The translations under genes and the position numbers were made by a program. The notes beneath the pieces are model-generated. The model saw only the letters and a list, made by a program, of their open reading frames with translations, did no database searches and was not told the origin of the DNA. Of a stretch of DNA of 37,596 bases, positions 6,173 to 28,433 are shown piece after piece. How positions within the stretch are numbered: position 1 is the stretch's first letter; every line of letters starts with the position of its first letter. This DNA is from a virus. Taxonomy: Duplodnaviria; Heunggongvirae; Uroviricota; Caudoviricetes. The stretch lies in IMG/VR virus record IMGVR_UViG_2558860170_000006; one strand, given 5' to 3'.

Positions 6173-6173
6173 C

Positions 6174-8930
6174 TTAAACACTCCCCACGTTGTACCATAT
6201 TCCCCCAATCAATTTCTGAATTGGCCTTCTGGCAACAGTGTCGACAATATCATCCGCATTGCTGTTAATTGCGGCTGTTAAAACATAACCTGACGCATCG
6301 CCAAAGCCGTAGTCGCGCCATACGTTTTTATATTCAATGCTGCCAAGACGAATATCCCGAACGACATGATTATGCAGCCATGTGCTTAACCAGTTGTTTT
6401 CCCACACTGAACCATAAATATCGCCACTAGACGCAACTTGCGCACCACTTCCCAGCGCAAATCCCCCATCTGTTTTAAAAATGAAATCACCACCACCATC
6501 TGAACCGTTATTAATATGAACACCATCACCACCGTTATCTTTCCACAAAAACATACGAATTCTTCCGTCTTCGTTGGCGAATGTAATGTGGTGGCGGTAA
6601 TTACTTTTTAATCTAAAATTGCTGCCATTAGATTCAATATCTTTATAAAGATGTAATCCTAACTCATCAATATGTCCGATGCGCGAACCATTTGAATAGA
6701 AGCTAATAATACCATCTCCATCTTGCCTAAATCCGGTGTCGTTATCTCCCAGAACAATGGAGTTTTCACCCAGTGCGTTATCAGTAGCTCCAATAGCTAG
6801 ACCTCCTTTAATTTTGGCCCCGTGGCTGACAGATATAGCACCTGTTCTCAGATTTATAGCGAATGGCCTTAATGGGCCGATATTACCGTTTTCGCCTTGT
6901 CCTTCAGCCGTCGGAATGAAATGAAGAAAATCTTCTGAACGACGGAAAATTAGACCGAAGGTATCATTGAAAATTCGCAGCGCATTCACCGTGCCAATTT
7001 TCAGTTCTCCGGTCATTTTATCGCCGGAACGCTGAACGGCGTTACCAGCCTTGTTTACCGTTTCCTGTAAACCGAGGTATTCGATAACGGCAGCAACGGT
7101 CGATTTCGCAAGAATATCCCGCCCGACTTTTGTCAGGGTTGCCAGGCTGGCGACATCATTCCCCGTAAAATACGGAAACTTGCCTGCCGCAGTAGTAAGT
7201 CCGGCCAGCGCCGTCAGGGTGGCATCTTTCGGTTGCTTACCCGCAAGCGCGTTAGTCATGGTGGTCGCAAAATTCGGGTCGTTGCCCAGCGCCGCAGCCA
7301 GCTCGTTCAGCGTGTTCAGTGCATCAGGTGACGAATCTACAAGGGCGGCAATCGCAGCCATAACGAAAGCCGTGCTTGCGATTTGGGTATTATTCGTTCC
7401 CTGTCGCGCAGTTGGTGTTGTTGGCGTTCCGGTCAGTGCAGGACTATTTAAGGGCGCTTTCTTGTTCGTTTCACCCATTACCGCCTTAACCGCTTTTGGC
7501 GTTGCCGCCAGTGACTCGGAAGTGCTGTTGGTCGCACTGCTGAGCTGTACTATCCCCTTTTTCGTCGTGCTCGCATCCTCCAGCGCCACGGCGGATGCAA
7601 TATCCTCTGCCCGTTTTGCTGCTGTCTCGGCGCGCGTTGCCGCGGATTCAGCAGCAACTTTGCTCTGAGATGCAGCCGTCGCACTGCCTGCCGCCTCTGA
7701 TGCTTTCGTTGTTGCTGTCGTGGCACTACCTTTCGCTGCTGACGCTTGTCTGGTCGCCTCATCTTTTGAAGCAGACGCAGATGATGCCGATGACGCCGCT
7801 GAACTGGCTGACGATGCGGCTGCTGCCTTAGAGGAAGCAGCATTGTCTGCTGAAGTCTTTGCATTTGTTTCAGAGGTTTTTGCTGCAGAAGCAGACCTCG
7901 CTGCTGCAGTGGCTTGCTCAGTGGCTTTGCCAGCCTTCGTTGTGGCTGTTGAAGCGGATGATGCGGCGCTTTCTGCCGATTTTCCGGCGGCGGTGGCACT
8001 GGCTGAGGCCTGCCCGGCACTTGTTGACGCGGCACTGGCAGATAATGCAGCCGCTGTTTTTGAACCTGCCGCAGCTGAGGCGCTCTGTCCCGCTGCTGTT
8101 TCAGAAGACTTAGCGTTCGTCTCGGACGTTTTTGCCGCCTTCGCGGAATTTCCTGCCGCCGTTGCCGAGGAAGCTGCACTACTGGCACTTGATGATGCAT
8201 TCGTTTCTGAAGATTTCGCTGCCTCTTTTGAGGCCGCCGCACCCCGTGCCGAGGTGGCAGCTTCTGACGCCTTCGTGGTCGCTGTGGATGCAGAAGTGGC
8301 TGCCGATTTTTGTGATGCTGCGGCATTCGTTTCTGACGTTTTCGCGGCACTGGCGCTGGTAGCTGCCGCGCTTTTTGATGACTCTGCAGCAGCACTTTTT
8401 GCTGCTTCACGGGCCTTTGTCGATGCCGTTCCTGCGCTGGAAGACGCTGACTGAGCCGACGACGCGGCCTGTCCGGCTGACGTGCTGGCGGCACGTGCTG
8501 AGGCTGCAGCATCGGTTGCATGAGTTGCCGCCTCGCTGGCTGATTTTTTCGCGGCTGCCGTATTCTGTGCAACCGCGGAGGCGTTACGTGACACCTCTTC
8601 CACCATCTGCTCAAAGCGGCGCAGTGCCTCCGGTCGGACATCATCCTCCGTCATGGCACCGAGAAAATCATTCAGCGTACCTGGTCTGGAACCTTCATAG
8701 ACGGTAATGGTCCCGGCATGTGAAGGCGGAAAACCTTCAACCAGCAGGGTGACGCTGTACTGACCATGCTCAACATCCATGCTGTAACGTCCGGCTTCAT
8801 CCGGATTTTCAGAGGCCACCGTGTTCACCACCATCGTGCTGCTGGTTCGTCTGGCCTTCAGCACAATGGTGCAGTTCTGTACTGGTTTTCCTGTGCCATC
8901 TTTAAGCACGCCAGAAATTTTTACTGTCAT
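6174..8930 (-). CDS. stf: side tail fibre protein Stf
   Basis: 918-aa ORF; N-terminus [30 protein letters not shown]… Stf-like; long Ala/Ser/Thr-rich repeat region; C-terminal variable part lies inside the invertible segment. Confidence 0.85.
7062..7087 (-). other. invertase recombination site (gix/pix-like), distal, inside stf
   Basis: Minus strand reads TTATCGAATACC-TC-GGTTTACAGGAA, inverted relative to 4146-4171; encodes EYLGLQE in the stf frame, in the same phase as the proximal site. Confidence 0.7.
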
Positions 8931-13338: not shown

Positions 13339-13405
13339 CATGCCCACCGATAATCCTGTTGGTTAAAACCGGTAATGGCATAAAAATTCTGAATATCTTC
13401 ACATT

Positions 13406-13433: not shown

Positions 13434-13498
13434 TTCTCTGCGTTAATTTTTTTGTCGTGATATAAGAATAATTCCTTACACTTAATCTTCGTAACTCT

Positions 13499-13545
13499 CC
13501 CGCAGTTCCTGTCCGCGATCACTGCGGGATTTTTTTATTCTTTTT
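13499..13545 (+). terminator. rho-independent terminator (plus strand)
   Basis: CCCGCAGT…ACTGCGGG hairpin followed by ATTTTTTTATTCTTTTT. Confidence 0.45.
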
Positions 13546-14865: not shown

Positions 14866-14875
14866 AAACCGGGAT

Positions 14876-15574: not shown

Positions 15575-15903
15575 CAGTTCACCACCTGCTTAAACTCCGC
15601 GCTGAACTCAACGCGCAACATCCCGACCCGCGCAGACCACCCGGCACAGGTCACCTTTATCTGCCGGTATGCATAGGGTGGCTTCCACAAAAATGCCTTC
15701 CAGCCACCGTGCTCTGCCAGGAACGCTTCCAGATGCCGGGCCTCCTCCCGGGTCACGGAAAGCGTCACCCTGTATGTTTTCAGGTCAGCATTCAGCCCTG
15801 CCGCCATACGCTGTGAGTACCCGTCACCAAAACGCACTTCACGCACCGATGGCTGCGAGTTCACCTCCATATCCGGCTTCACTTTCCAGCGAAAGGTTTT
15901 CAT
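15574..15903 (-). CDS. M: minor tail protein M
   Basis: 109-aa ORF MKTFRWKVKP…, lambda M-like. Confidence 0.9.
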   Translation of the reverse strand: MKTFRWKVKPDMEVNSQPSVREVRFGDGYSQRMAAGLNADLKTYRVTLSVTREEARHLEAFLAEHGGWKAFLWKPPYAYRQIKVTCAGWSARVGMLRVEFSAEFKQVVN

Positions 15904-18473
15904 CCACCGCTCCCTGATAACATACCGCCATCACGCAACTGCAGCCGGAGTTCATCCTGTGCCCCCTTGCGGGCCATCTCATACACCGCTTTCATCAGCT
16001 GCGGCCCTGCCCGCCCGTTGGGGCCGTCGTTCTGAATCACCACGTGATTGTTCTGATTAAAATTAATGCCTTCCGCCCGCCGCATCTGCGCCGGACTTCC
16101 GGCACCGCCGACATAACCACCTTCCGCATAGCCCCGCATCAGGCGGTACAGATTGCCGACACCAATCCGGCTGGTCGCCTCCTTCGTGAAGACAAACTCC
16201 CCGCGATGAACAATCCCCGCAGGTTCATATTTACCCCCCGTCCCCGTAAATCCCCCGGTCGCGAAATGGAAGTTCGCCGCCGCAGCCTGAATGGCCGTCC
16301 CCGTGGAGGCAGACGCACCACCACCGAAAGCACCGCCAATGGCGCTGCCGATACTCCCGACTATCCCCACCATCGCCTGCTTCAGAAAAATCTCTGTCAG
16401 CATGGACAGCACAGAACGGGTGAAACCACGCCAGTTCTGTTCGCTGCCGATCAGCATCGCTGCCATATTCTGTGCAATACCGTCAAAGGTCTGCGTGGCC
16501 GCGTTTTTAACCTGCGAAAAACTGTCCGTCGCACTTTCCGCCCACTCGCCCCAGCCGGACTTCATCCCGGCCATCCAGCTTCCACGAAGCTGCTCCTCCG
16601 CAGACCAGGTGTTCTTCAGTGCAGATGTGGCCTTCGCCAGCGCAGCCGGATTATCACCGTACACCTCACGAAGGCGCTGCTCTTCCGACTCCCGCTGCGC
16701 CTGACGGTCGGTGAGTCCGCGGGCTTTTGCGCTGATTGCCGCCTGCTTCGCGCTCTGCTGCTGTTCAAACCGCGCCGCCTGCTGTGCCAGCTCATTCAGC
16801 CGTTTCTGGTGTTCAATCTTGTCGCCCAGCTCAGCCAGCTGGCGTTTGTACTCCAGCGTTTCTTTCTCATGGGCCAGCAGGGATTTTTCCTGCTCAGATA
16901 ACTGCCGTTTCGTGGCGGCCTCTTTCAGGACCACATACTGATTTTCCGCTTTCCATAAATCACGGCGCTGCTGGCTGATTTTTTCATTCGCACCGCTGTG
17001 CTTCTCCAGCGTCCTGAGCTCAGTTTCAAGCGCCAGCAGGGCTGCATGCGCCTGGTCTTCCTGGCGCTCACCGGCAGACACCTTCACACCGGACGGCTTT
17101 TTCTGCGTCGACTCATAATCCTTTTTTGCCGACGCCATCAGCGTGTTGTAATCCGCCTGCAGGATTTTCCCGTCTTTCAGGGCCTTATTCAGCTCTTCCT
17201 GCCGGGCGGTATATTTCTCCAGTGGCGTCAGCAGGCGCTCATACGCCTTCTGCGCCTCTCCGGTATACTTCAGCTGTGACGACTCACGCTCAGCCCTGTC
17301 CCTTGCCGCCAGTTCACCGGCTTTTTCCATATCCGACTGCAGCGTTGCCGCTGCCAGACCCAGACGGGCATTTTCCCGGTCATCCCATGCGCCCTGAAGG
17401 TTGGCCCGGAAAGAGGAGGTTTTACCGCGGCGCTGGCTCCGACTCTGGTACCACTGCCATTTTTTATCCGCCTCATCAAATGCCTTCTGCGCACTGGCGA
17501 GCATATCCGCTGAGGATTCCGGACGACCGATATCCAGAATGGCATCCCACATCGATTTGAATGCCTTCCCTGTTTTATCCGCCCAGGTCTCCAGTGTTCC
17601 CATGTTTTCTTTCAGGCGACGGGTCTGCTCATCAAAGCCTTTCGTGGCGATATCGTTCGCCGCCTGCAATGCCCCGGCCTCGTCTCCGGAACGCTGCAGC
17701 TGTGCAACATACGCAATCTGCTCTGCCGTCACGTTACGGAACTGGCGCGCCATCGCCATCAGTCCCGACGTCGGGTCAGTGGTCAGCTTCCCGAAGGCTT
17801 CAGCGACTTTATCCACCTCCACACCGGATGCAGACGCAAAACGCGCGACACTCTGGTTGATGGCATCAAACTGTTCACCACCACGCACACCGGCATTCAC
17901 CAGGGCTGCCAGTGACTCTCTCGCCTGGTTAAACGTCAGCCCTGCTGCCTGCCCGGCTCTTGAGAGAGTCAGCATACGATCGGCAGTCAGTCCGGACTGA
18001 TTACCGGAAAGAACCAGGGTTTTATTAAACGCTGAAAGCGTGGAATCTCCCTGGTACCAGGCGTACACCAGTGCACCTGTCGCCACCGCCAGCGAGGTGA
18101 CCCCGACCATCGGCAGGGTGATCGCATCGGCAAGCCCCCTGAACATGGGGATCATCCCGCCGAAGGAGTCCTTCACCTGACCGCCCTGTTGCAGCAGGAT
18201 CAGCCAGGGATTCTGACCACCGGCAAGCTGCGTGGCGATATCCGTAAACTGTGCGGGCAGGGTTCGCATGGCCGCTTTATACTGCCCGACGGAAATCCCG
18301 GCTTTTTGTGCAGCCAGCGCCTGGCGGCTCAGGCCCTGTTCAACAGCACTGGCGGTTTTTCTGGCGTCGGTATCCAGACCTGAAAAATGACGCCTTACCC
18401 GGCTCATCTGCTCATCGAAACGGACAGCATCCAGACTCAGGTCAATAACAAGATCACCAACCGGCTGGGACAT
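15900..18473 (-). CDS. H: tail tape measure protein H
   Basis: 857-aa ORF collinear with lambda H (MSQPVGDLVIDLSLDAVRFDEQMSRVRRHFSG…). Confidence 0.9.
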   Translation of the reverse strand: MSQPVGDLVIDLSLDAVRFDEQMSRVRRHFSGLDTDARKTASAVEQGLSRQALAAQKAGISVGQYKAAMRTLPAQFTDIATQLAGGQNPWLILLQQGGQVKDSFGGMIPMFRGLADAITLPMVGVTSLAVATGALVYAWYQGDSTLSAFNKTLVLSGNQSGLTADRMLTLSRAGQAAGLTFNQARESLAALVNAGVRGGEQFDAINQSVARFASASGVEVDKVAEAFGKLTTDPTSGLMAMARQFRNVTAEQIAYVAQLQRSGDEAGALQAANDIATKGFDEQTRRLKENMGTLETWADKTGKAFKSMWDAILDIGRPESSADMLASAQKAFDEADKKWQWYQSRSQRRGKTSSFRANLQGAWDDRENARLGLAAATLQSDMEKAGELAARDRAERESSQLKYTGEAQKAYERLLTPLEKYTARQEELNKALKDGKILQADYNTLMASAKKDYESTQKKPSGVKVSAGERQEDQAHAALLALETELRTLEKHSGANEKISQQRRDLWKAENQYVVLKEAATKRQLSEQEKSLLAHEKETLEYKRQLAELGDKIEHQKRLNELAQQAARFEQQQSAKQAAISAKARGLTDRQAQRESEEQRLREVYGDNPAALAKATSALKNTWSAEEQLRGSWMAGMKSGWGEWAESATDSFSQVKNAATQTFDGIAQNMAAMLIGSEQNWRGFTRSVLSMLTEIFLKQAMVGIVGSIGSAIGGAFGGGASASTGTAIQAAAANFHFATGGFTGTGGKYEPAGIVHRGEFVFTKEATSRIGVGNLYRLMRGYAEGGYVGGAGSPAQMRRAEGINFNQNNHVVIQNDGPNGRAGPQLMKAVYEMARKGAQDELRLQLRDGGMLSGSGG

Positions 18474-18915
18474 ATCTCACACCTCCCGGAATCCCCGCTG
18501 AAGCCATCATTAATGCGGCATCATCCACCATGACATCCGCCACATCCGCAGACGATAAAATATCGCGCCCTCCGTCCCCACCGAACCGGACGCCTCCGGC
18601 AAGTCCTGCCGCTTTCTGCATCAGCATTTTGTCCTCATCCGGCCTCTCCACCTGCTCTTCCTCATGCCGGGGGACAAGCAGACTGAAATCAGAGGGATGC
18701 ATATCCGGATCGCAAAAAAACAGGCTGAGTACAGCGTACGTCAGCCCGGAAAAATGCATATCCAGCTGGGTATCCTGAAAATAATGCGTGCGGTAAAAAC
18801 GGCGCCAGTCGGCATATTCGGTGGATGTCATCCCGGCAAGCATGGCGCGCCAGTCGGGTCTCCCCATCTCACGCGCCAGTCTGAGGGCAAAGTTCAGCTC
18901 GCCGTCGAAGACTTT
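18454..18915 (-). CDS. T: tail assembly chaperone, T portion of the G-T frameshift product
   Basis: The -1 frame relative to G is open from the slippery site through the T ORF; lambda-like G-T arrangement. Confidence 0.8.
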   Translation of the reverse strand, partial: KVFDGELNFALRLAREMGRPDWRAMLAGMTSTEYADWRRFYRTHYFQDTQLDMHFSGLTYAVLSLFFCDPDMHPSDFSLLVPRHEEEQVERPDEDKMLMQKAAGLAGGVRFGGDGGRDILSSADVADVMVDDAALMMASAGIPGGVRYVPAGW

Positions 18916-19325
18916 CCCGCAGAAAAATCATCATCAGTCAGCGTGTTATTTTTCGCCACTTCAGTAATATCAGTATCCGGACGAACAGCTTCGATCATCC
19001 CGGACAGGCACAACACCACGTCTTCCGCCCGGGCAATGGCATCGGCAGGCCAGGTGGTGAGCACTTCCTGCTCTATCTTCATCACGGCCTCATTCATTGA
19101 CGGTGACTGCGTTTTCTGTGGATGGTTATGCCACAGGGACATCGCCACCAGAAACGCGCCGGTTCTGACGAGATCTTCCACGCTTACCTGCAGGTTGCCG
19201 CTGGATTCTGCCTGTTCTGCACGCCGTTTCAGGAGGGCAAGATGCTCGATACGCTGCAGCGCAGACAATTCGGAAAGCGTGACAGACACACCGTTATATT
19301 CAAATTGTTCTGTTTTCAGAAACAT
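18894..19325 (-). CDS. G: tail assembly chaperone G
   Basis: 143-aa ORF MFLKTEQFEYNGVSVTLSELSALQRIEHLALLKRRAEQ…, lambda G-like. Confidence 0.9.
   Translation of the reverse strand: MFLKTEQFEYNGVSVTLSELSALQRIEHLALLKRRAEQAESSGNLQVSVEDLVRTGAFLVAMSLWHNHPQKTQSPSMNEAVMKIEQEVLTTWPADAIARAEDVVLCLSGMIEAVRPDTDITEVAKNNTLTDDDFSAGKSSTAS
18912..18918 (-). promoter_or_regulatory. programmed -1 ribosomal frameshift site GGGAAAG
   Basis: Heptamer G GGA AAG in the G frame, 6 codons before the G stop. Confidence 0.8.
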
Positions 19326-19338
19326 GTATTACCTCCGT

Positions 19339-20091
19339 TTACCCTGCAGCGCCCGCTTCAGTAACGGTGACTTCAGCCACTGCGGCGAACTGACCATTTC
19401 CGCTCACCACAGGGATCTGCACCTTACCTGTCGCCACGCCGTTTACCGTAATTGTCATATCTTTCACACTAATGGTGGCTTTCGACGGATCGGCGGAAAC
19501 CGCTCTGAACGTCTTGTCGGTTGCACTTTCCGGCTCAAAAGAAACCGTCAGGGTGGTTGTTTTCCCTTTTGCCACCGTACCGGATGTCGGCGTCACCTTA
19601 ATCGCACTGACCGGCGTAATTTTGCTGCGTTCTTCCGCTACAGAAGGTTTACCCACGTTAGTGACTTTCACCGTGCGGGTGATCACTTCTTTCGCCGTCA
19701 CGGCCTTACCGATACTGCTGACCCAGCCACGAAACACATCCACCGTGCCATTCGGAAAACGGATTTTATAGGCCCGGACATCGCCGCTTTCAAACCAGCC
19801 TATAAGCCCTTTCTGGCCTTCCTCTCCCGGTTTCCAGGCCAGCGTAAAACTGGTATCACCTGCAGATTTCTGCCCCTGCCCGGTCGCGCTCCAGTCCGCG
19901 TCTTCATCATCCAGGTAGTTATCATCATAGGATTCAGCCGTCATCTCGCCCGGCGTCAGATCCTTCACCTTAGCCAGTCGCTGCCAGTCATCGTCTGACA
20001 ACGGGTTTGCATAAGCATCAGCCTTGCCGTTGTAAACCCACAGAGTGGTACCGGCACCTTTTACCGGCTCCAGGGGATTTGGTGTTGCCAT
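19339..20091 (-). CDS. V: major tail protein V
   Basis: 250-aa ORF collinear with lambda V, including the C-terminal Ig-like domain. Confidence 0.9.
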
Positions 20092-20098
20092 ATCGTCC

Positions 20099-20494
20099 TC
20101 ACATCTCGTATGTAATGGAATAAGTCAGATCCGCAGAGCTCCATAACGCCATATCGTCATCACGACGATACTCATAGCCCTGCGTAACCATCGTGGTAAT
20201 CAGTCCTGCCAGTGCAGGGATCGCAGTCATCGCCGGATAAATCCGGCTTTCCATCCACTGATCGAGCTCCGAATCAGGTACCTGTGCCGGTAAAAACACC
20301 TCAATATGCAGTGTGGCCCGCCAGGTATCTGCATCCAGCTCTTCACCGGTATACTCTGCATCCGTCAGATAAACCGCGATCGCAGGAAAATCCTCTTCGT
20401 CAAAAACAACGGGGCGACCATCAAACAGCGTCGCCCCGTGTTCATGCTGCTCGAGTGCATCCAGCACTGCGGCACGAATGTCAGTGTGTTTCAT
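20099..20494 (-). CDS. U: tail terminator protein U
   Basis: 131-aa [47 protein letters not shown]…, lambda U-like. Confidence 0.9.
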
Positions 20495-21066
20495 CGTTTT
20501 ATCGCAATCCTCAGTTGTTGTTTCAGCGCGTATGCCAGTTCTTTAGGCAGGCGTTCACGCCGGATACGGTCAACATTCTCATCAAATGCCTGTTTCAGTG
20601 GGGCCGCCATCGGGATTTTCACCACCTGAATGGGAAGGCGATTACGCTTTTTCCTTCCCTTGTCGTCATTGCCCTCCTCATATCTGGCCTGGGGAAGACG
20701 TTGCATAACATGCCAGCGCCCATTATTTAATCGCTGGATAAATGCCCGCTGATAACGATGCTGACCGGCTTTGAGTATGCTGTTCGGACGACGCCCCAGC
20801 ATTCTGATCCCCAGCTTAATCACAGGGAGATCACCGCGGTTAACGATAATTCTGGCATTCGGATTTCTGACCGTCGCCCGTTTCAGTCTGGACCGTTCCT
20901 TTACCAGTTTCCGTCTCACCCTGGTTTCCCGGGCAACCTGTGACGAAGACTGATTAATCGCCGTTGTGGCCACGCGGTTAATGGTCATTGCAGAAGCAGC
21001 CGGAATGGCGTTTTTACGAACCCGGTTCAGATTGTCAATCGCCTGATCAAGCCCTTTTATCGCCAT
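20491..21066 (-). CDS. Z: minor tail protein Z
   Basis: 191-aa ORF MAIKGLDQAIDNLNRVRKNAIPAASAMTINRVA…, lambda Z-like. Confidence 0.9.
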   Translation of the reverse strand: MAIKGLDQAIDNLNRVRKNAIPAASAMTINRVATTAINQSSSQVARETRVRRKLVKERSRLKRATVRNPNARIIVNRGDLPVIKLGIRMLGRRPNSILKAGQHRYQRAFIQRLNNGRWHVMQRLPQARYEEGNDDKGRKKRNRLPIQVVKIPMAAPLKQAFDENVDRIRRERLPKELAYALKQQLRIAIKR

Positions 21067-21080
21067 AATTCACCCTGCGT

Positions 21081-21155
21081 TTATCGTCGCCGGTTAACTG
21101 CGGGTGGTTGCCCACGGTTGAGCCAGAGATAACAGCTGCCCCCGTCATCCGGAGA
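21081..21155 (-). pseudogene. FII: head-tail joining protein FII, 3' remnant (last ~24 codons)
   Basis: Minus strand encodes SPDDGGSCYLWLNRGQPPAVNRRR*, matching the lambda FII C-terminus; the frame breaks exactly where the IS21-family end begins. Confidence 0.7.
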
Positions 21156-21256
21156 TGTCAGCGCCAGTGATATAAGACGGTAATTCGCCATTTGGATTGT
21201 CCGCTCCACCCAACATGTTGTTTCCTTAAGGTTCTCACACCAGAAAGGACATCAAC

Positions 21257-22429
21257 ATGCTGAGCAGAGAGGACTTTTACATGATAAAGCAAATGCGCCA
21301 GCAGGGCGCGTACATCGTCGATATTGCGACTCAGATTGGTTGCTCTGAACGGACGGTCAGACGCTACCTCAAATACCCTGAACCGCCAGCCAGAAAGACC
21401 CGCCACAAAATGGTTAAGCTGAAACCGTTTATGGATTACATCGACATGCGCCTGGCAGAGAATGTCTGGAATAGCGAGGTTATCTTCGCGGAGATTAAGG
21501 CAATGTGTTATACGGGCGGACGTTCCATGCTGCGTTACTACATCCAGCCCAAACGTAAAATGCGTCCGTCAAAAAGAACAGTTCGCTTCGAAACTCAGCC
21601 TGGATACCAGCTCCAGCATGACTGGGGCGAAGTTGAGGTGGAGGTTGCCGGGCAACGGTGCAAAGTTAACTTTGCGGTTAATACGCTGGGGTTCTCCCGC
21701 AGCTTCCATGTCTTCGCCGCACCAAAACAGGATGCTGAGCATACCTACGAATCACTGGTTCGCGCCTTCCGCTACTTCGGTGGTTGTGTGAAAACGGTGC
21801 TGGTTGATAACCAGAAGGCTGCGGTGCTGAAGAATAACAACGGGAAAGTCGTGTTCAACTCCGGATTCCTGTTGCTGGCTGACCACTATAACTTCCTGCC
21901 ACGGGCATGCCGTCCACGCAGGGCCAGAACAAAAGGTAAGGTTGAGCGGATGGTGAAATACCTCAAGGAGAACTTCTTCGTCCGGTACCGCAGGTTCGAC
22001 AGCTTCACTCATGTCAATCAACAACTGGAGCAATGGATAGCCGATGTGGCTGACAAACGGGAGCTTCGCCAGTTCAAAGAAACGCCGGAACAGCGCTTCG
22101 CGCTGGAGCAGGAACATCTGCAGCCGTTACCGGATACAGACTTCGATACCAGTTACTTCGATATCCGCCATGTGTCCTGGGACAGCTATATCGAGGTTGG
22201 TGGTAATCGTTACAGCGTTCCCGAAGCGCTGTGTGGTCAGCCGGTATCGATACGAATATCGCTGGATGACGAGTTGCGGATCTACAGTAATGAGAAACTG
22301 GTGGCCTCACATCGCCTCTGTTCAGCATCGTCTGGCTGGCAGACAGTGCCGGAGCATCACGCCCCGCTCTGGCAGCAGGTCAGTCAGGTGGAACATCGAC
22401 CACTGAGTGCCTATGAGGAGCTGTTGTGA
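21257..22429 (+). CDS. istA: IS21-family transposase IstA
   Basis: 390-aa ORF with N-terminal HTH and DDE region (…QLQHDWGEVEV…VLVDNQKAAV…TKGKVERMVKYLK…). Confidence 0.9.
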   Translation: MLSREDFYMIKQMRQQGAYIVDIATQIGCSERTVRRYLKYPEPPARKTRHKMVKLKPFMDYIDMRLAENVWNSEVIFAEIKAMCYTGGRSMLRYYIQPKRKMRPSKRTVRFETQPGYQLQHDWGEVEVEVAGQRCKVNFAVNTLGFSRSFHVFAAPKQDAEHTYESLVRAFRYFGGCVKTVLVDNQKAAVLKNNNGKVVFNSGFLLLADHYNFLPRACRPRRARTKGKVERMVKYLKENFFVRYRRFDSFTHVNQQLEQWIADVADKRELRQFKETPEQRFALEQEHLQPLPDTDFDTSYFDIRHVSWDSYIEVGGNRYSVPEALCGQPVSIRISLDDELRIYSNEKLVASHRLCSASSGWQTVPEHHAPLWQQVSQVEHRPLSAYEELL

Positions 22430-22975
22430 TGCATGAACTGGAAGTCCTGCTGAGTCGCCTGAAAATGGAGCATCTGAGTTATCACGTTGAAAGCCTGCTG
22501 GAACAGGCAGCTAAAAAAGAGCTGAACTACCGGGAGTTCCTGTGCATGGCGCTACAGCAGGAATGGAACGGCAGGCATCAGCGCGGTATGGAGTCCAGGC
22601 TGAAGCAGGCTCGTCTGCCGTGGGTCAAAACGCTGGAGCAGTTCGACTTTACCTTCCAGCCGGGCATCGACCGTAAGGTTGTCCGGGAACTGGCTGGTCT
22701 GGCGTTCGTGGAGCGCAGCGAAAACGTGATCCTGCTGGGCCCTCCTGGTGTCGGAAAAACTCATCTGGCCATAGCTCTTGGCGTGAAAGCGGTGGATGCG
22801 GGACATCGGGTACTGTTTATGCCACTGGACAGACTGATCGCGACACTGATGAAAGCGAAACAGGAAAACCGGCTGGAGCGTCAGCTACAGCAACTGAGTT
22901 ATGCCCGGGTGTTGATCCTGGATGAAATAGGCTATCTGCCGATGAACAGAGAGGAAGCCAGTCTGTTCTTCCGGC
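22426..22975 (+). pseudogene. istB: IS21-family helper ATPase IstB, truncated by IS600
   Basis: Walker A GPPGVGKTH and Walker B LILDEIGY present; the frame ends at the IS600 boundary after …EEASLFFR; the expected ~80 C-terminal codons are not found downstream of IS600. Confidence 0.85.
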
Positions 22976-23039
22976 TGAGGTAGCCTGAGTTTAACGGACA
23001 CTCCTTCCTGAAATAGAATGGCATCAGAAGGAGCTAATA

Positions 23040-23342
23040 ATGAGCAGAAAAACCCAACGTTACTCTAAAGAGTTCAAAGCCGAAGCTGTCAGAACGGTTC
23101 TTGAAAATCAACTTTCGATCAGTGAAGGCGCTTCCCGATTATCTCTTCCTGAAGGCACTTTAGGACAATGGGTTACCGCCGCCAGAAAAGGGCTCGGTAC
23201 TCCTGGTTCCCGCACGGTGGCTGAACTGGAATCTGAAATTCTGCAACTGCGTAAGGCGTTAAATGAAGCTCGCCTTGAGCGAGATATATTAAAAAAAGCA
23301 ACAGCGTATTTTGCACAGGAGTCGCTGAAAAATACGCGTTAA
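23040..23342 (+). CDS. IS600 OrfA
   Basis: 100-aa ORF MSRKTQRYSKEFKAEAVRTVLENQLSISEGASRLSLPEGTLGQWV…; A-run (AAAAAAAG) near its 3' end fits an IS3-type -1 frameshift into orfB. Confidence 0.9.
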   Translation: MSRKTQRYSKEFKAEAVRTVLENQLSISEGASRLSLPEGTLGQWVTAARKGLGTPGSRTVAELESEILQLRKALNEARLERDILKKATAYFAQESLKNTR

Positions 23343-23377
23343 TCGAACAATGGCGACAACAATTTCCCATTGAAGCG

Positions 23378-24196
23378 ATGTGTCAGGTATTTGGTGTATC
23401 CAGGAGCGGTTATTACAACTGGGTACAGCATGAACCCTCAGACAGAAAACAAAGTGATGAGCGGCTAAAACTGGAGATTAAGGTGGCACATATCCGCACT
23501 CGCGAAACATATGGAACCCGGCGGCTCCAGACGGAGCTGGCAGAGAATGGCATCATCGTTGGTCGTGACCGACTGGCACGTCTTCGTAAGGAGCTAAGGC
23601 TACGCTGTAAGCAGAAACGCAAGTTCAGAGCGACTACGAACTCGAACCACAATCTGCCAGTTGCGCCAAATCTGCTGAACCAGACGTTCGCTCCTACAGC
23701 ACCAAATCAGGTCTGGGTGGCGGACCTGACGTATGTTGCCACACAGGAGGGATGGTTGTACCTCGCTGGCATCAAAGATGTTTATACGTGCGAAATTGTC
23801 GGCTACGCCATGGGAGAGCGCATGACAAAAGAGCTGACAGGTAAAGCCCTGTTTATGGCGCTCAGGAGCCAGCGCCCACCTGCCGGGCTAATCCACCACT
23901 CTGATCGAGGTTCACAGTACTGCGCATACGATTACCGGGTCATACAGGAGCAGTCTGGTCTGAAAACATCAATGTCGCGTAAAGGTAACTGTTACGACAA
24001 CGCTCCGATGGAAAGCTTCTGGGGAACGCTGAAAAATGAGAGCCTGAGCCACTATCGTTTTAATAACCGGGATGAAGCCATCTCAGTAATACGGGAATAC
24101 ATTGAGATTTTCTACAATCGTCAGCGTCGTCACTCTCGTCTGGGGAATATCTCCCCGGCAGCCTTCAGGGAAAAATATCATCAGATGGCTGCTTAA
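23378..24196 (+). CDS. IS600 OrfB (DDE transposase catalytic part)
   Basis: 272-aa ORF with IS3-family DDE integrase-like sequence (…VWVADLTYV…HHSDRGSQY…YDNAPMESFWGTLK…). Confidence 0.9.
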   Translation: MCQVFGVSRSGYYNWVQHEPSDRKQSDERLKLEIKVAHIRTRETYGTRRLQTELAENGIIVGRDRLARLRKELRLRCKQKRKFRATTNSNHNLPVAPNLLNQTFAPTAPNQVWVADLTYVATQEGWLYLAGIKDVYTCEIVGYAMGERMTKELTGKALFMALRSQRPPAGLIHHSDRGSQYCAYDYRVIQEQSGLKTSMSRKGNCYDNAPMESFWGTLKNESLSHYRFNNRDEAISVIREYIEIFYNRQRRHSRLGNISPAAFREKYHQMAA

Positions 24197-24335
24197 AAAA
24201 AGAACAAATGGTAGTGTCCGCTATTGCCAGTACACCTCAGTTAGTCAGCTTCTTATCGAACTTGAGCTGAAGGATCTTAAAACAAGTTTCCATAGTGCTC
24301 CTGGATTTTCTCTTTTTGGACATTGACGTCTCCAC

Positions 24336-24367
24336 TGGTTTAAACACGGCAATGGAGACTGTGGTGA
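24336..24367. promoter_or_regulatory. near-perfect palindrome, operator-like
   Basis: GTCTCCACTGG-TTTAAACACGG-CAATGGAGAC; 10-bp arms with one mismatch. Confidence 0.25.
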
Positions 24368-24418
24368 AAAGAGTTAATTCCCGGAGTGACTGGCGAATTC
24401 CAATCAATGATCGGAAGT

Positions 24419-24534
24419 ATGCCAAATCGTGATCGATTGTGATGCCAAACTGTGATCGGAGATGGATGCCAAATCATGATCGATTCGAATGCCAAACTGC
24501 GATCGATTCAGATGCCATTTTGCAATCAGCGCCA
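24419..24534 (+). repeat. five tandem ~23-bp direct repeats (iteron-like), four carrying GATC
   Basis: ATGCCAAATCGTGATCGATTGTG / ATGCCAAACTGTGATCGGAGATGG / ATGCCAAATCATGATCGATTCGA / ATGCCAAACTGCGATCGATTCAG / ATGCCATTTTGCAATCAGCGCC; period 23-24 bp, so not coding. Confidence 0.7.
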
Positions 24535-24629
24535 GAACAGCAGCTGACAGGCCGTATTTGATTTTTGCGCTCATGGATATTTATCAGGATGCTACCAATG
24601 AAAGATACTGGAAAGCCAACTGCAAAAAG

Positions 24630-24944
24630 CTAACAACCCGTAATCGAGTTATCAGAACTGTTAATTTTTATGGTATACCGCGCCTCTGAACAGGGGCGCG
24701 TTTCTGGCAACAGCTCGTCCCCTTCACATAACCCGGCAGCAACATCCAAGAAGACCTGTCTGATGCTCCTTCTGGCTGCTGCCTCATAAAACTCCAGCGC
24801 GGCACCTTCAACACGGTCCAGCGAGATGTCCAGGTCAAAAATTTCACCGTCAAAGCGTTTTTTGTCCCGTAACGCTAAAGTTACCGTAACTTTATTCTCA
24901 AAATTGCGGATCCCTTTCACAATCAGTTCATAGTTTTGAGTCAT
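24630..24944 (-). CDS. hypothetical protein in the position normally held by the endolysin
   Basis: 104-aa ORF starting 5 nt after the holin stop; no lysozyme or transglycosylase motif seen. Confidence 0.4.
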   Translation of the reverse strand: MTQNYELIVKGIRNFENKVTVTLALRDKKRFDGEIFDLDISLDRVEGAALEFYEAAARRSIRQVFLDVAAGLCEGDELLPETRPCSEARYTIKINSSDNSITGC

Positions 24945-24948
24945 TGAA

Positions 24949-25164
24949 TTACTCTCCCCGTGCAGCCTTACGACGGTCCTCTCTGATTTTGAAATACAGG
25001 TTAGTCAGATATGTCAGCAGCCCAAACAGCAGACTCCCCAGCACGCCTATTGCCGCCCACTGAGACGGGGAAACCCTGTCCAGCAACTGCAGGAACCAGT
25101 AGCCCGTTCCCACCGCTGACGTGGTGTATGACACACCTGTTGTGATTTTTTCCATCTGGTACAT
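24949..25164 (-). CDS. S: phage holin S (Stx-phage/lambdoid type)
   Basis: [71 protein letters not shown]; hydrophobic helices and charged C-terminus; start taken at ATG 25162-25164 rather than the longer track ORF. Confidence 0.75.
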
Positions 25165-25314
25165 ACCCCGTCTCCCGTTATCCGGAAGCTGACAACAATA
25201 AAAAAAGCCACCAGTTAAGTACTGATGGCTCTGATAACTCATGCAGGCATCTCAGACGACCCACTGACACTACCGGTGAGTTTAACGATACCTTCCATTT
25301 GGCTGGCTCACTTT

Positions 25315-27168
25315 TTATGATGATGCCGGTGCATTTATCTCCAGCACCAGACTTTCTATCTCAACGCCATACGCTGCATTTTTGGTAATATCCGTCAGCG
25401 TCAGCGCATTCAGCCCCAGTGTCAGACTGTCTTTTATGACCTGGAATGCCGGGCCAGCCACTCCATTCAGTTTCGGAGTAACCGTGGCACTGCCGGCGGT
25501 GAACACCAGCTCCAGCGTCAGCCAGTCGTTACTGTAATTCCCGAACTCGCCCAACTTTGTGTTTCCTGCTTTCTTGTGATGCATCAGATTCAGTTTGCCG
25601 TCTGTGGTCTGGGTGAAGAACGACATCAGGAACGGGTTACCAGTCCCGGTCATCGCCACGACGTCAGGTAACGCTACATCGGTATACAGATAAATTCCCA
25701 GACCGAACTGGTTGTTGGTCAGTGCGCCTGACAGTCGAAACTTACAGCTCAGTCTGCCACCCCGTGTCAGCAGGGAGACTGCGTCATCCACCGGGCGCGT
25801 CAGGGACCAGGCTTTATTGCTCTGCTTGGTGATCTTAAATACACCATCTGACAACTGAACTCCGCCATTCTTAATGCTCCAGCCCTGCGCAGCAGCGTCT
25901 CCGGCTGTCGGCAACAGGGAGATTGTGCGTATGGATGCATCTTCAGACGGCCCCGATGGCGTGTCGCCGCCGGGCGAGGGTTTGATTTCCGGTGCCTTAC
26001 CACTAATGAAGGCTAAGGTGCGACCGGCTACGTTCAGAATAGCAGTTGCCATACGATCGGGAATAATGCCACGACGCGCCCATGAGCTGAAATGCGTCGG
26101 GCGATTTGATGATACCCAGTTTTTGTTCGTTCGGGATGCCGAACCGTAATAACCAGACCCGGCAATATCAGGATCTTCTGACGGGTTGTTTGTCGGTGTA
26201 TTAACTCCGCTACCATCGGTCATAAAGGGAACAAAATAAATCTGCTGGGATTCTTTACCTTTATATGCACCATATACCACTTCATATTGCGTACCGTGTT
26301 CTTGTTTCCACGCGTATGTCGTGTCGCCACAAATCCAGGGGACTGATGCCGGACTTCCACCGTGACACTGCGCCGCCAGCCCGGCAAGGTCAGCACGGAA
26401 CTGCTGTACCATTGCAAGAAATGCTGCTGGCTGCTGGGCGTAACTGGCATTCGTCATATCGAATTCCCCCTGCATCCAGCATATCGCCAGCAAAACGTTT
26501 TTCGGGTTTTTCTGCAATGCTGCCTTCGTGCGGAAAAGCAGATCCTGATATAACGGCTTACCCACTCCCCAGCGAGCCGAATCCTGACTGGCCCCCGTGG
26601 ACTCGCTGAATGTCCCCTCCGTGCCCTGGGTGAATGCCGAACCACCACAACAGCATGGTACCAGCAGGATCCCCGCATTATTAGGGATATACGGAAGCAG
26701 TTTTTTGGCAATATGTAAGCCCTGTCCGACACAGCCGTACTGCCCTTTGCTCAGGTCAGCCCGGGGATGGTTAATCGTACTCATATCCTGAACATCATGC
26801 AGACAATGGTCAGCAGGAATGATGTCGTTAAATACGCATACTTCACCACCGGGAGTCACTGTGTTACGACGGGCCAGTTGCTTAATGCGCGGATGGGGCG
26901 CATCGTATGAATCCGGAAGCGGAAGACCTTCACCGTAAGCCATGGCATTGGATTGCCCGGCCAGTACGATGACGTAGTACCACTCCGGCTCAGTTGCACC
27001 ACTGACGACCACATCACCTTCTGCTGCAATCGCCTGCATCAGGGTATAAGGGGTTATGGCCACCGGACTACCAAACGGCTGCCAGCCCTCCTTCAGTTTT
27101 TGTGTCAGTCGTTTCGCAAGGTCTGACGGCGATGCCGCCCTGACCACGTCATAGTGTTTAAATGCCAT
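25315..27168 (-). CDS. nanS-p: NanS-p-type esterase (9-O-acetyl-neuraminate esterase-like, YjhS family)
   Basis: 617-aa ORF; occupies the position directly upstream of S, as I recall for this family in lambdoid/Stx prophages. Confidence 0.8.
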   Translation of the reverse strand: MAFKHYDVVRAASPSDLAKRLTQKLKEGWQPFGSPVAITPYTLMQAIAAEGDVVVSGATEPEWYYVIVLAGQSNAMAYGEGLPLPDSYDAPHPRIKQLARRNTVTPGGEVCVFNDIIPADHCLHDVQDMSTINHPRADLSKGQYGCVGQGLHIAKKLLPYIPNNAGILLVPCCCGGSAFTQGTEGTFSESTGASQDSARWGVGKPLYQDLLFRTKAALQKNPKNVLLAICWMQGEFDMTNASYAQQPAAFLAMVQQFRADLAGLAAQCHGGSPASVPWICGDTTYAWKQEHGTQYEVVYGAYKGKESQQIYFVPFMTDGSGVNTPTNNPSEDPDIAGSGYYGSASRTNKNWVSSNRPTHFSSWARRGIIPDRMATAILNVAGRTLAFISGKAPEIKPSPGGDTPSGPSEDASIRTISLLPTAGDAAAQGWSIKNGGVQLSDGVFKITKQSNKAWSLTRPVDDAVSLLTRGGRLSCKFRLSGALTNNQFGLGIYLYTDVALPDVVAMTGTGNPFLMSFFTQTTDGKLNLMHHKKAGNTKLGEFGNYSNDWLTLELVFTAGSATVTPKLNGVAGPAFQVIKDSLTLGLNALTLTDITKNAAYGVEIESLVLEINAPASS

Positions 27169-27361
27169 GAATCCTCCCGGCCGGGATAATATTGTGAGTA
27201 AAATAAGGAGCGGGCTGAAGTCCGGAAGTTACAGGACAATGGCAGAAGAGAGACGACAGCCCGCAATTCGAAAAAGACCGCGCAGTTGCGCAGAGTGATT
27301 ACTATGGGGTATTATTCGCCAGCTGAAATATTACTTCACGTTTTATTGTTTATTCCTTGCC

Positions 27362-27390
27362 GCCCGCGTCTCCCAGCGCGGGCTTTTTTT
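27362..27390 (+). terminator. rho-independent terminator (plus strand)
   Basis: GCCCGCG-TCTCCCA-GCGCGGGC hairpin followed by TTTTTTT. Confidence 0.5.
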
Positions 27391-27395
27391 GCCCA

Positions 27396-27697
27396 CAAGA
27401 AAACCCCTCCGGAGAGGGGCTAAAGCCGCGTATCTGTATCATCATGCACATGGTGCCGGGTGCCTCCCGGTGAGTTCAGCCCGGTGCCACTAAACCCGCG
27501 TCATTCTCGTTTTGATAATCAGAGATTATACCGTCACCAGTCGCCCCTCCGCTCAGGGGGATTCACCATGCGAAATTTTTTTAACAAATGCCCAGTCTGA
27601 CAGGCAACTGTCAACTTACTGAATTGTGAGCAACATAGCATTTAACGGGGAACCTGTTTTCTGCAGTAAAAAGGCCCACCGGAGCGGATGGGCCTGG
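27396..27697 (-). repeat. non-coding module U1 (paralogue of U2); candidate small transcription unit
   Basis: Bounded by minus-strand terminators (GGCCCATCCGCTCCGGTGGGCC+T5 at 27668-27694; CCCCTCTCCGGAGGGG+TTTTCTT at 27396-27419); shares conserved blocks with U2; internal TATAAT on the minus strand. Confidence 0.5.
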
Positions 27698-27886
27698 AAG
27701 GATAGCGGTCATGTGATGCCGGTTTCCCGGTAACTCAGCACCGGTATCTGAGTCAACGTTTTCTCTACTGGGTCATTTCCGATACGCCCTGCCTGCTGAC
27801 AGGCTTTCATCACATCTGAAAATATAGCACCCTGACTGATACTGTAGTACCTAAGGTTCCAGAAACTGTGATGTATCCGGCACAGA

Positions 27887-28129
27887 AAAGCCCCTCCGGA
27901 GAGGGCTGGAGAGTGGCGCTATGTGCCATTGCATGATGCCGGGTGCCTCCCGGTGAATTCAGTACCAGCACCTGAATCCGCGATTATCCCATATACCTAC
28001 TCGCTGATTGCCCCTCCGCACAGGGGGATTCACCATGCCAGTTTCTTTTAACAAACTCCCCGCAAAACAGACAACTGTCAACCGTCTGAATTGTGAGACA
28101 TTTAAAAAAAAGGCCCGCAAAAGCGAGCC
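27887..28129 (-). repeat. non-coding module U2 (paralogue of U1), directly downstream of the tRNA cluster
   Basis: Minus-strand terminators at 28104-28129 (hairpin + T8) and 27887-27907; conserved blocks GCCGGGTGCCTCCCGGTGA, CAGGGGGATTCACCATG, CAACTGTCAAC, CTGAATTGTGAG. Confidence 0.5.
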
Positions 28130-28143
28130 AGGGAAAATAAGTG

Positions 28144-28220
28144 TGGCGCGTTGTACTGGATTCGAACCAGTGACCGATTGCTTAGAAGGCAATTGCTCTG
28201 TCCGGCTGAGCTAACAACGC
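28144..28220 (-). tRNA. argO: tRNA-Arg (anticodon TCT)
   Basis: GCGTTGTTAGCTCAGCCGGACAGAGCAATTGCCTTCTAAGCAATCGGTCACTGGTTCGAATCCAGTACAACGCGCCA; 7-bp acceptor stem, encoded CCA. Confidence 0.85.
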
Positions 28221-28233
28221 ATGATGCAGATAA

Positions 28234-28310
28234 TGGACCGCCATCGGGGACTTGAACCCCGCGCAGCCAGCTTCGAAGGCTGGCGCTCTTTCCTGATGAG
28301 CTAATGGCGG
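28234..28310 (-). tRNA. argN: tRNA-Arg (anticodon TCG)
   Basis: CCGCCATTAGCTCATCAGG…CCAGCCTTCGAAGCTGG…GGGGTTCAAGTCCCCGATGGCGGTCCA; cloverleaf-compatible. Confidence 0.8.
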
Positions 28311-28317
28311 TATGTGA

Positions 28318-28393
28318 TGGTGGCCCTTGCTGGATTTGAACCAGCGACCTGGCGATTATGAGTCGCTCGCTCTCACCACTGAGCTAAAGGGCC
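28318..28393 (-). tRNA. ileZ: tRNA with CAT anticodon, Ile2 (lysidine) type
   Basis: GGCCCTTTAGCTCAGTGGTGAGAGCGAGCGACTCATAATCGCCAGGTCGCTGGTTCAAATCCAGCAAGGGCCACCA; resembles E. coli tRNA-Ile2 as I recall it. Confidence 0.8.
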
Positions 28394-28433
28394 GGGAGCC
28401 GCATAATAACGACGCGTAATTAATTCTTCAATA

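What the first reader, a model, noticed from the sequence alone, without database searches (positions are those of the whole stretch)
21081..24239. IS21-family insertion in the FII 3' end with IS600 nested in istB; packaging and head module and most lysis genes absent
Upstream of Z there are only 24 codons of FII before an IS21-family end. The element carries istA and a truncated istB, cut at 22975 by a complete IS600 with no target duplication, and the expected istB 3' part and IS21 right end are not found after IS600. About 10-12 kb expected between the lysis genes and Z (terminase, portal, head, plus endolysin and Rz) is missing, so the IS elements mark a deletion junction.
Basis: partly seen in the sequence, partly recalled or inferred. 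Interest (0 to 1): 0.45.

Follow-up and report, generated by a model that had tools for sequence, protein, structure and literature searches.

The report
IS-bounded deletion in Shigella prophage
This is a real but ordinary scar in a dead lambda-like prophage of Shigella sonnei, where three insertion sequences meet and about 10.5 kb of head, packaging and lysis genes have been lost.

Summary
Only the last 24 codons of FII remain upstream of Z (21081-21155). They abut the precise left end of an IS21-like element (21156-22975: 1820 of 2131 bp, istA intact, istB cut at codon 182). A complete 1264-bp IS600 follows (22976-24239), flanked by GGC and GTT, so it has no 3-bp target duplication.

Positions 24240-24524 are the left end of a second IS21-family element, ISSso4, inverted and 100% identical to full copies. 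It sits in codon 17 of the phage lysozyme gene (remnant 24525-24574).

Intact E. coli prophages (042, O104:H4) are colinear with both sides and place 10,538-10,539 bp in the gap. This is therefore an internal deletion of a single prophage.

The window is identical to S. sonnei 53G, and the junction recurs in at least 10 contigs from several NCBI assemblies, so it is not an assembly artefact. Other S. sonnei genomes keep the IS600-ISSso4' junction. Some extend the loss by 16.5 kb on the other IS600 side, and some invert the segment between two IS600 copies.

This is well-known IS-driven prophage decay. Interest is low.

The parts
20491..21066 (-). Tail gene Z (191 aa), the last intact gene of the tail module before the junction
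   Evidence: ORF. Pfam PF06763 Minor_tail_Z on the identical gene in L005. 99.5-99.9% identical to the O104:H4 prophage.
21081..21155 (-). FII (head-tail joining protein) 3' remnant: stop codon plus 24 codons
   Evidence: The translation is identical to residues 94-117 of the intact 117-aa FII. Homology to intact prophages ends at 21155.
21156..22975 (+). IS21-like element, left 1820 bp of 2131: left inverted repeat, intact istA (21257-22429) and istB codons 1-182 (22429-22975). It lacks the last 311 bp, which carry istB codons 183-265 and the right inverted repeat.
   Evidence: Left end aligned to three full copies. Right end and length taken from full copies. One mismatch in 1820 bp, and the IstA and IstB comparisons. 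Pfam rve plus Mu-transpos_C_2 and IstB_IS21.
22976..24239 (+). Complete IS600 (IS3 family), 1264 bp, with orfA 23040-23342 and orfB 23378-24196. Flanks GGC and GTT, so no target-site duplication.
   Evidence: Self-BLAST against the other copies. Ends, flanks and SNPs. Control IS600 insertions in related genomes carry 3-bp duplications, GGA and TAC.
24240..24524 (-). ISSso4 (IS21 family) left-end remnant: 285 of about 2638 bp, comprising the left inverted repeat with repeated TTTGGCAT motifs and the first 18 annotated codons of istA
   Evidence: 100% identical to complete ISSso4 copies. End mapped by alignment. Full length derived.
24525..24574 (-). Phage lysozyme (endolysin R) 5' remnant: 16 codons, MSAKIKYGLSAAVLAL
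   Evidence: Translation and comparison with intact lysozyme. Homology to intact prophages resumes at 24522.
24630..24944 (-). YdfR/DUF1327 gene of the lysis cassette (104 aa)
   Evidence: Pfam PF07041. Annotation in related prophages.
24949..25164 (-). Class II holin (71 aa), the only lysis effector gene left intact
   Evidence: Gene call and Pfam PF04971 in L005. Annotated as holin.
34315..35578 (-). Second IS600 copy, inverted relative to the junction copy and also without a target duplication. It is the partner in the inversion seen in other S. sonnei assemblies.
   Evidence: The hybrid IS600 in L030 joins window 6462 to 34314.
6462..6463 (.). Breakpoint of the larger deletion found in most other complete S. 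sonnei genomes. There the IS600 left end is joined to 6462 and 6463-22975 (16,513 bp) is lost.

Best explanation
The region is a genuine, inherited deletion scar inside one lambda-like cryptic prophage of Shigella sonnei. I put about 0.9 on that level of the claim.

**Shown**
- An IS21-like element has a precise transposition junction in FII codon 94.
- ISSso4 has a precise junction in lysozyme codon 17.
- The two elements face each other, and a single intact IS600 lies between them without a target duplication.
- Missing between them are the IS21 right 311 bp, about 10.54 kb of phage DNA and about 2.35 kb of ISSso4. The phage DNA covers the FII 5' part, FI, the capsid, decoration, protease, portal and W genes, both terminase subunits, Rz, and the lysozyme gene beyond codon 16.

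**Inferred history**
1. The two IS21-family elements inserted independently.
2. IS600 copies then landed in direct orientation, one in istB of the IS21-like element and one in istA of ISSso4.
3. Homologous recombination between the two copies excised about 13.2 kb and left one hybrid IS600.

**Consequences**
- The prophage can make neither heads nor packaged DNA, and cannot lyse the cell.
- The IS21-like copy is immobile, because it has no right end and a truncated IstB.
- IS600 stays intact. It continues to act as portable homology, and other S. sonnei lineages show a further 16.5-kb deletion and an inversion at the same copy.
For: - **Precise IS ends at the phage junctions:**
- **No duplication at this IS600, unlike simple insertions.** This copy has GGC and GTT flanks. 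Two simple IS600 insertions in the same genomes show 3-bp duplications, GGA and TAC.
- **One prophage on both sides.** Both flanks are colinear, in the same orientation, with single intact prophages of E. coli O104:H4 (gap 10,538 bp) and E. coli 042 (gap 10,539 bp).
- **Nothing left in the window.** The missing IS21 3' part and the rest of ISSso4 are absent from it.
- **Independent assemblies.** The window is 100% identical to S. sonnei 53G (HE616528.1) over the 20.5 kb compared. The exact IstB'-IS600 fusion protein is encoded on 10 contigs, including complete chromosomes.
- **IS600 x IS600 recombination happens at this locus.** L030 carries a hybrid IS600 that joins window 6462 to 34314. That is an inversion between the junction copy and the inverted copy at 34315-35578.
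Against: - No genome with the proposed two-IS600 intermediate was found, nor any pre-deletion state. None of 5,426 complete E. coli genomes carries the FII::IS21 junction or the lysozyme::ISSso4 junction.
- In every S. sonnei context seen, the IS600 right-end/ISSso4' junction is invariant and only the left-end flank changes: istB in one type, tail-fibre position 6462 in the other. That polarity fits repeated one-sided, transposase-driven deletions at least as well as it fits recombination.
- IS600 SNPs were too few to reveal a hybrid copy.
- The rest of the 53G chromosome could not be searched.
Confidence: 0.55

Rival explanations
1. The deletion scar is the same, but it was made by IS600 itself. 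A single IS600 inserted into istA of ISSso4, so the right-end junction at 24239/24240 is the original one. Its left end then attacked a target in istB of the IS21-like element, 13 kb away on the same molecule, through intramolecular, one-ended or IS-dimer transposition. That deleted everything between. A second event of the same kind later gave the 16.5-kb extension seen in other lineages.
For: - The IS600 right-end/ISSso4' junction (flank GTT) is invariant in all 53G-type and larger-deletion genomes. Only the left-end flank differs: GGC in istB, or AAT at tail-fibre position 6462.
- No intermediate with a second IS600 at either left breakpoint appeared among the contigs read.
- The IS600 copy is intact.
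Against: - From my own knowledge, IS3-family elements move by copy-out/paste-in through a circular intermediate, and this does not normally leave adjacent deletions.
- Recombination between IS600 copies is directly documented at this locus by the inversion in L030.
- An invariant right junction is also what sequential recombination with new left-hand copies would produce.
Confidence: 0.3
2. The head and packaging segment was not lost. It was moved elsewhere in the chromosome by IS-mediated inversions or translocation, so the junction is a rearrangement breakpoint.
For: S. sonnei genomes do rearrange through IS600 (inversion in L030). One draft assembly (L009) shows the IS21-like left end next to a yifB fragment instead of FII. 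The rest of the 53G chromosome could not be searched here.
Against: - A single inversion cannot place IS600 directly against ISSso4' with both phage flanks keeping their orientation (inference).
- A search of 5.8 billion proteins with the missing 93 N-terminal FII residues found no product with the predicted FII/IS21-right-end fusion. The one 96-aa candidate was a frameshifted FII next to Z and U.
Confidence: 0.07
3. The two sides come from two different lambdoid prophages that were fused by recombination between IS600 copies, so no single prophage lost 10.5 kb.
For: Identity to any one reference is uneven. Against O104:H4 it is 99.5% on the left and 87-94% on the right. Against E. coli 042 it is 92.7% on the left and 97.4% on the right.
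Against: Both flanks have the same orientation and the same gene order as single intact prophages in two unrelated E. coli strains, and the gap size is the same to within one base. Uneven identity is normal mosaicism for lambdoid phages.
Confidence: 0.04
4. The junction is an assembly artefact caused by collapsed IS repeats, or else a plain IS600 insertion into istB plus an unrelated deletion.
For: The region is dense in repeats: three IS600 and three IS1 copies lie in the window.
Against: The same junctions occur at 99.94-100% identity in independent assemblies, including several complete chromosomes. A plain insertion would leave istB sequence and a 3-bp duplication on the right side of IS600, and neither is there.
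Confidence: 0.02

Closest known systems
IS-mediated genome and prophage decay in Shigella (Hawkey et al. 2020, PMC7373316; Yang et al. 2005 as cited there)
   Same: Same organism and same elements. IS21, IS600 and ISSso4 are among the 12 IS types reported in S. sonnei 53G. IS600 is one of five expanded IS, and deletions and rearrangements between homologous IS copies are described as a main route of gene loss.
   Different: In the text I read, the paper does not describe this particular junction. What is added here is only the base-level anatomy and the set of variants seen in other genomes.
IS21 (IS21 family; 2131 bp, istA plus istB)
   Same: The 1820 bp present are 99.9% identical to complete 2130/2131-bp copies. 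Those copies have TGTCA...TGACA ends, a 390-aa IstA (rve) and a 265-aa IstB (PF01695), and one of them has a 4-bp duplication, TCAT.
   Different: This copy lacks the right end and istB codons 183-265, so it cannot transpose on its own. Whether it matches the original Pseudomonas IS21 sequence was not tested; the name rests on PGAP and ISSaga labels.
IS600 (IS3 family)
   Same: It is 1264 bp with TGAGGT... ends, a 100-aa OrfA (HTH_Tnp_1) and a 272-aa OrfB (rve). Simple insertions in sister genomes carry 3-bp duplications.
   Different: This copy has unrelated flanks and no duplication, which marks a recombinant or deletion-associated copy.
Cryptic lambdoid prophages of E. coli, such as Qin. 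In strain STEC276 the Qin prophage has an IS21-like element at the rrrQ lysozyme start.
   Same: Lambda-type late region with holin, YdfR, lysozyme and Rz, inactivated by IS insertion. The same IS21-like element has hit the same lysis cassette independently.
   Different: In STEC276 the IS is complete, carries a TCAT duplication and caused no deletion. Here three ISs and a 10.5-kb loss are involved.

Membership tests
IS21 family (element at 21156-22975) | istA encoding a DDE (rve) transposase, followed by an overlapping istB encoding an AAA+ helper ATPase | tested here: met
   IstA has PF00665 plus PF22483, and IstB' has PF01695. The istA stop and the istB start overlap at 22429. IstB is truncated after residue 182 of 265.
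IS21 family (element at 21156-22975) | Terminal inverted repeats (TG...CA) at both ends, flanked by a short target duplication | tested here: not met
   The left end is present and precise. The right end and any duplication are absent from this copy and from the window. Full copies elsewhere have both ends, and one has a 4-bp duplication. This is therefore a truncated family member, not a complete element.
IS600 / IS3 family (22976-24239) | An element of about 1.26 kb with imperfect terminal repeats and orfA/orfB (HTH plus rve) in consecutive frames | tested here: met
   1264 bp, with ends TGAGGTAGCC... and ...GTACACCTCA. OrfA is 100 aa and OrfB 272 aa. It is annotated elsewhere as a 385-aa programmed-frameshift product.
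IS600 / IS3 family (22976-24239) | A 3-bp target-site duplication, as expected for a simple insertion | tested here: not met
   The flanks are GGC and GTT. Control copies in sister genomes have GGA/GGA and TAC/TAC. The element is an IS600, but its position is not a simple insertion.
ISSso4 (IS21 family) fragment at 24240-24524 | Sequence identity to the ISSso4 end, including its terminal repeat and the istA start | tested here: met
   100% identity over 285 bp to complete copies annotated as ISSso4. The terminus was mapped by alignment of three copies in different contexts.
Lambda-type late operon (single prophage with an internal deletion) | Both flanks colinear and co-oriented with one intact prophage in the order tail, Z, FII, head, terminase, Rz, R, YdfR, holin | tested here: met
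   O104:H4 prophage and E. coli 042 prophage. The gaps are 10,538 and 10,539 bp.

The most novel reading that the evidence does not exclude
The IS600 copy at this junction is not passive homology. It is a polar, transposase-driven deletion generator. Its right-end junction with ISSso4' has stayed fixed while its left end has eaten leftwards at least twice, first about 13 kb to istB and then 16.5 kb to the tail-fibre gene. That would be a natural example of one-sided nested deletions made by an IS3-family element.
Probability: 0.25. Interest if true: 0.3.

Novelty: already known. Interest (0 to 1): 0.1.

Why it matters
It matters little beyond housekeeping. It documents at base resolution how one S. 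sonnei prophage lost its head, packaging and lysis functions. It also shows that the same IS600 copy underlies structural differences between lineages: the 53G-type arrangement, a 16.5-kb larger deletion, and an inversion. That is useful for annotating S. sonnei genomes, for choosing structural markers, and as a caution when mapping short reads to 53G. It opens no new biological question.

Tried and rejected
1. **Pre-deletion or intermediate states in 5,426 complete E. coli genomes.** No genome has the FII::IS21 junction or the lysozyme::ISSso4 junction.
2. **The reciprocal product.** I searched 5.8 billion proteins with the missing FII N-terminus and inspected the truncated hits. None has the predicted read-through into the IS21 right end (...VDRVSLSTPRCLT). 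The best candidate, P0001, was an ordinary frameshifted FII next to Z and U.
3. **IS600 SNPs as evidence of a hybrid copy.** Only 0-2 variable sites exist, and they are shared haphazardly between copies, so they are uninformative.
4. **Matches that appeared to extend beyond the ISSso4 end.** Some related elements matched up to query position 315, which suggested the end might lie further out. Alignment showed the end is at 24524 and the extensions were chance.
5. **IS21-like elements next to lysis genes in several E. coli strains** (H8-H10). I asked whether the IS21-like element had originally sat at the lysozyme gene here too. In STEC276 it is an independent complete insertion at the rrrQ start codon with its own TCAT duplication, so this was rejected.
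6. **An intermediate for the larger deletion.** I looked up the neighbouring tail-fibre assembly protein. It gave no intermediate, but it did reveal the IS600-IS600 inversion.
7. **Not done.** The genome contigs and metagenome scans were not used, because I expected S. sonnei to be folded into E. coli in that species-representative set (my own recollection, not checked).
Full report
**Observation**

The phage genes lie on the minus strand. They run from the tape-measure gene (15900-18473) through the tail assembly and tail genes corresponding to lambda T, G, V and U, to Z (20491-21066).

Upstream of Z, the frame that ends at the stop codon 21081-21083 reads SPDDGGSCYLWLNRGQPPAVNRRR. These are exactly the last 24 residues of the 117-aa FII of an intact E. 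coli O104:H4 prophage. Nucleotide homology to intact prophages ends at 21155.

At 21156 the sequence TGTCAGCGCCAGTG... begins. Three complete IS21-like copies in unrelated contexts begin at the same base. Those copies are 2130-2131 bp long and end in ...GGCGTTGACA. One of them has a 4-bp duplication, TCAT.

The window copy has an intact istA (21257-22429, 390 aa, one substitution). Its istB follows the reference for 182 of 265 codons. There is one mismatch in 1820 bp.

At 22976 a 1264-bp IS600 starts and runs to 24239. It has both ends, orfA and orfB, and differs by 0-2 bases from the two other IS600 copies in the window. Its flanks are GGC and GTT. The missing 311 bp of the IS21-like element are nowhere in the window.

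The only coordinate shift is that the last IS21 base is 22975 and IS600 begins at 22976.

The 285 bp after IS600 (24240-24524) are 100% identical to the left end of complete ISSso4 elements. ISSso4 is a different IS21-family member of about 2638 bp. The fragment lies on the minus strand and includes the first 18 annotated codons of the ISSso4 istA.

Alignment of three ISSso4 copies in different contexts puts the terminus at 24524.

Beyond it, 24525-24574 (minus strand) reads MSAKIKYGLSAAVLAL. This is the N-terminus of the phage lysozyme. Homology to intact prophages resumes at 24522.

The arrangement in the window's plus-strand order is therefore:

Z, FII' | IS21-like left end, istA, istB' | IS600 | ISSso4' (inverted) | lysozyme', YdfR, holin, SASA esterase.

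Both IS21-family fragments keep only their outer, precise transposition junction and point towards each other.

**Source and reality**

The window is 100% identical over 20.5 kb to S. sonnei 53G, HE616528.1. That strain is lineage II according to PMC5447701.

The exact IstB'-IS600 fusion protein is encoded on 10 contigs, including other complete chromosomes at 99.94-99.98% identity.

One draft (L009) shows the IS21-like left end next to a yifB fragment and an IS1 instead of FII. This could be a chimeric contig, or a recombinant between IS21-like copies. I did not resolve it.

**One prophage, about 10.54 kb missing**

Two intact prophages are colinear and co-oriented with both flanks.

| Reference prophage | Left flank | Right flank | Gap |
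|---|---|---|---|
| E. coli O104:H4 | window 19252-21155 matches locus 18773-20676 | window 24522 matches locus 31215 | 10,538 bp |
| E. coli 042 | window 14028-21155 at 92.7% | window 24522-31262 at 97.4% | 10,539 bp |

In those references the gap holds:
- the FII 5' part and FI;
- the major capsid, decoration, protease and portal genes, and the small head-tail joining gene (W position);
- both terminase subunits;
- small ORFs;
- the Rz-type lysis protein;
- the rest of the lysozyme gene.

If both IS21-family elements were once complete, the total loss was about 13.2 kb.

**Mechanism**

A simple IS600 insertion leaves a 3-bp duplication. Two extra IS600 copies in sister genomes show this, with GGA and TAC. 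The junction copy has no duplication, and its two flanks belong to two different elements. It therefore sits at a deletion joint.

Population data add three facts.

1. The IS600 right-end/ISSso4'/lysozyme' junction is present in every S. sonnei context returned. The 56-aa junction ORF is indexed in 196 blocks of the collection.
2. In 7 of the 10 places shown, and about 20 of the 24 contigs read, the IS600 left end is joined to window position 6462 in the tail-fibre gene rather than to istB. This removes a further 16,513 bp, comprising the IS21-like fragment and the whole tail module.
3. In L030 and one similar place, a hybrid IS600 joins 6462 to 34314. This is an inversion of the segment between the junction copy and the inverted IS600 at 34315-35578.

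The third fact shows directly that IS600 x IS600 homologous recombination operates here. On that basis I favour recombination between two directly repeated IS600 copies, one in istB and one in ISSso4 istA, as the cause of the deletion (0.55).

The invariant right junction with a variable left flank is equally what repeated one-sided, transposase-driven deletions would leave. I rate that rival at 0.3. It goes against what I recall of the IS3-family copy-out/paste-in mechanism, and no intermediate of either kind was found.

The literature supports the general picture. IS21, IS600 and ISSso4 are among the 12 IS types in 53G. IS600 is one of five IS expanded in all Shigella species. Deletions between homologous IS copies are a recognised route of decay (PMC7373316).

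**Was the segment moved rather than lost?**

I could not search the rest of the 53G chromosome.

A search of the 5.8-billion-protein collection with the 93 missing N-terminal FII residues returned many FII variants. None had the predicted read-through into the IS21 right end. The single 96-aa candidate was a frameshifted FII next to Z and U.

Geometry also argues against a single inversion. I leave relocation at 0.07.

**Consequences (inferred)**

- The prophage cannot build or fill heads, and it lacks endolysin and spanin. Only the holin and YdfR remain of the lysis cassette.
- The tail module in 53G is itself decaying, because J is split into at least two ORFs.
- The IS21-like fragment cannot move, having no right end and a truncated IstB. 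Its intact IstA could at most act on other copies.
- IS600 is intact and remains a substrate for further rearrangement, as the sister genomes show.

**Comparison and verdict**

Each component is a known element, and the process is textbook Shigella genome reduction. The sequence itself is a published reference genome.

The only additions here are the third IS fragment, the exact breakpoints, the measured size of the gap, and the catalogue of alternative arrangements at the same IS600.

- Novelty: already known.
- Interest: about 0.1.
- Most novel reading not excluded: polar, transposase-driven nested deletions by IS600. Probability about 0.25. It would be of modest interest even if true.

Noticed in passing
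window 6463-22975 (compare L014-L016, L018, L021, L023): Most complete S. sonnei genomes returned lack this 16,513-bp stretch, which holds the IS21-like fragment, FII', the whole tail module and part of the tail-fibre gene. In them the IS600 left end is joined directly to 6462, while the IS600/ISSso4' side is unchanged.
   Followed up: yes
L030 (JBEAAF010000002.1) versus window 24240-34314: A hybrid IS600 joins window 6462 to 34314. This is an inversion between the junction IS600 and the inverted copy at 34315-35578. The same assembly also has a 250-bp deletion of window 32592-32841.
   Followed up: partly
L009 (GCA_000268225.1, AKNE01000010.1) positions 1-587: In this draft assembly the IS21-like left end is flanked by a yifB (Mg-chelatase-like) fragment and an IS1 instead of FII and Z. 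It is either a chimeric contig made through the repeated IS21, or a recombinant between two IS21-like copies.
   Followed up: partly
window 34315-35578: The second IS600 copy also lacks a target duplication (plus-strand flanks GGA and AAA), so it too is probably a product of recombination. To its right, 37101-37229 matches the E. coli 042 prophage in inverted orientation.
   Followed up: partly
window 4142-7091: A 2950-bp tail-fibre segment is bounded by inverted sites of the form TTATC.AA.ACCTCGGTTTAC, which resemble Gin/Pin-type crossover sites from memory. It is flipped in two other S. sonnei genomes (L033, L035), which swaps the tail-fibre C-terminus and its assembly protein. Only a 60-aa resolvase fragment is called nearby.
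   Followed up: partly
window 1929-2696: This IS1 copy is absent from the larger-deletion genomes, where the flanks overlap by about 9-10 bp (the duplication). It is therefore a lineage- or strain-specific insertion. Other IS1 copies lie at 1-395 (cut by the window edge) and 36041-36808.
   Followed up: partly
window 27699-27703: Many other S. sonnei genomes carry an extra IS600 here, between the esterase gene and the tRNA/methylase region, with a GGA duplication. 53G does not.
   Followed up: yes
window 9749-12927 and 31264-32322: The tail-tip gene J is split into at least two ORFs (9749-11290 and 11284-12927). The DUF968 gene is split in 53G (113 and 208 aa) but is a single 352-aa ORF in two other S. 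sonnei genomes (L006, L007).
   Followed up: no
window 28144-28393: A phage-borne tRNA cluster lies on the minus strand between the esterase and methylase genes: Arg-tct, Arg-tcg and a CAT-anticodon tRNA. ARAGORN calls the last one Met, while it is annotated as Ile in the related E. coli prophages.
   Followed up: no
L001 (E. coli STEC276, Qin prophage) 4001-6131: This is an independent, complete insertion of the same IS21-like element, placed exactly at the start codon of the rrrQ lysozyme gene with a TCAT duplication. The lysis cassette of lambdoid prophages has thus been hit repeatedly by this IS.
   Followed up: yes
window 24420-24524: The ISSso4 left end carries several spaced copies of the motif (G/A)TTTGGCAT, each followed by TCGATC-like sequence. 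This is the multi-repeat end architecture typical of IS21-family elements, presumably the transposase binding sites.
   Followed up: no
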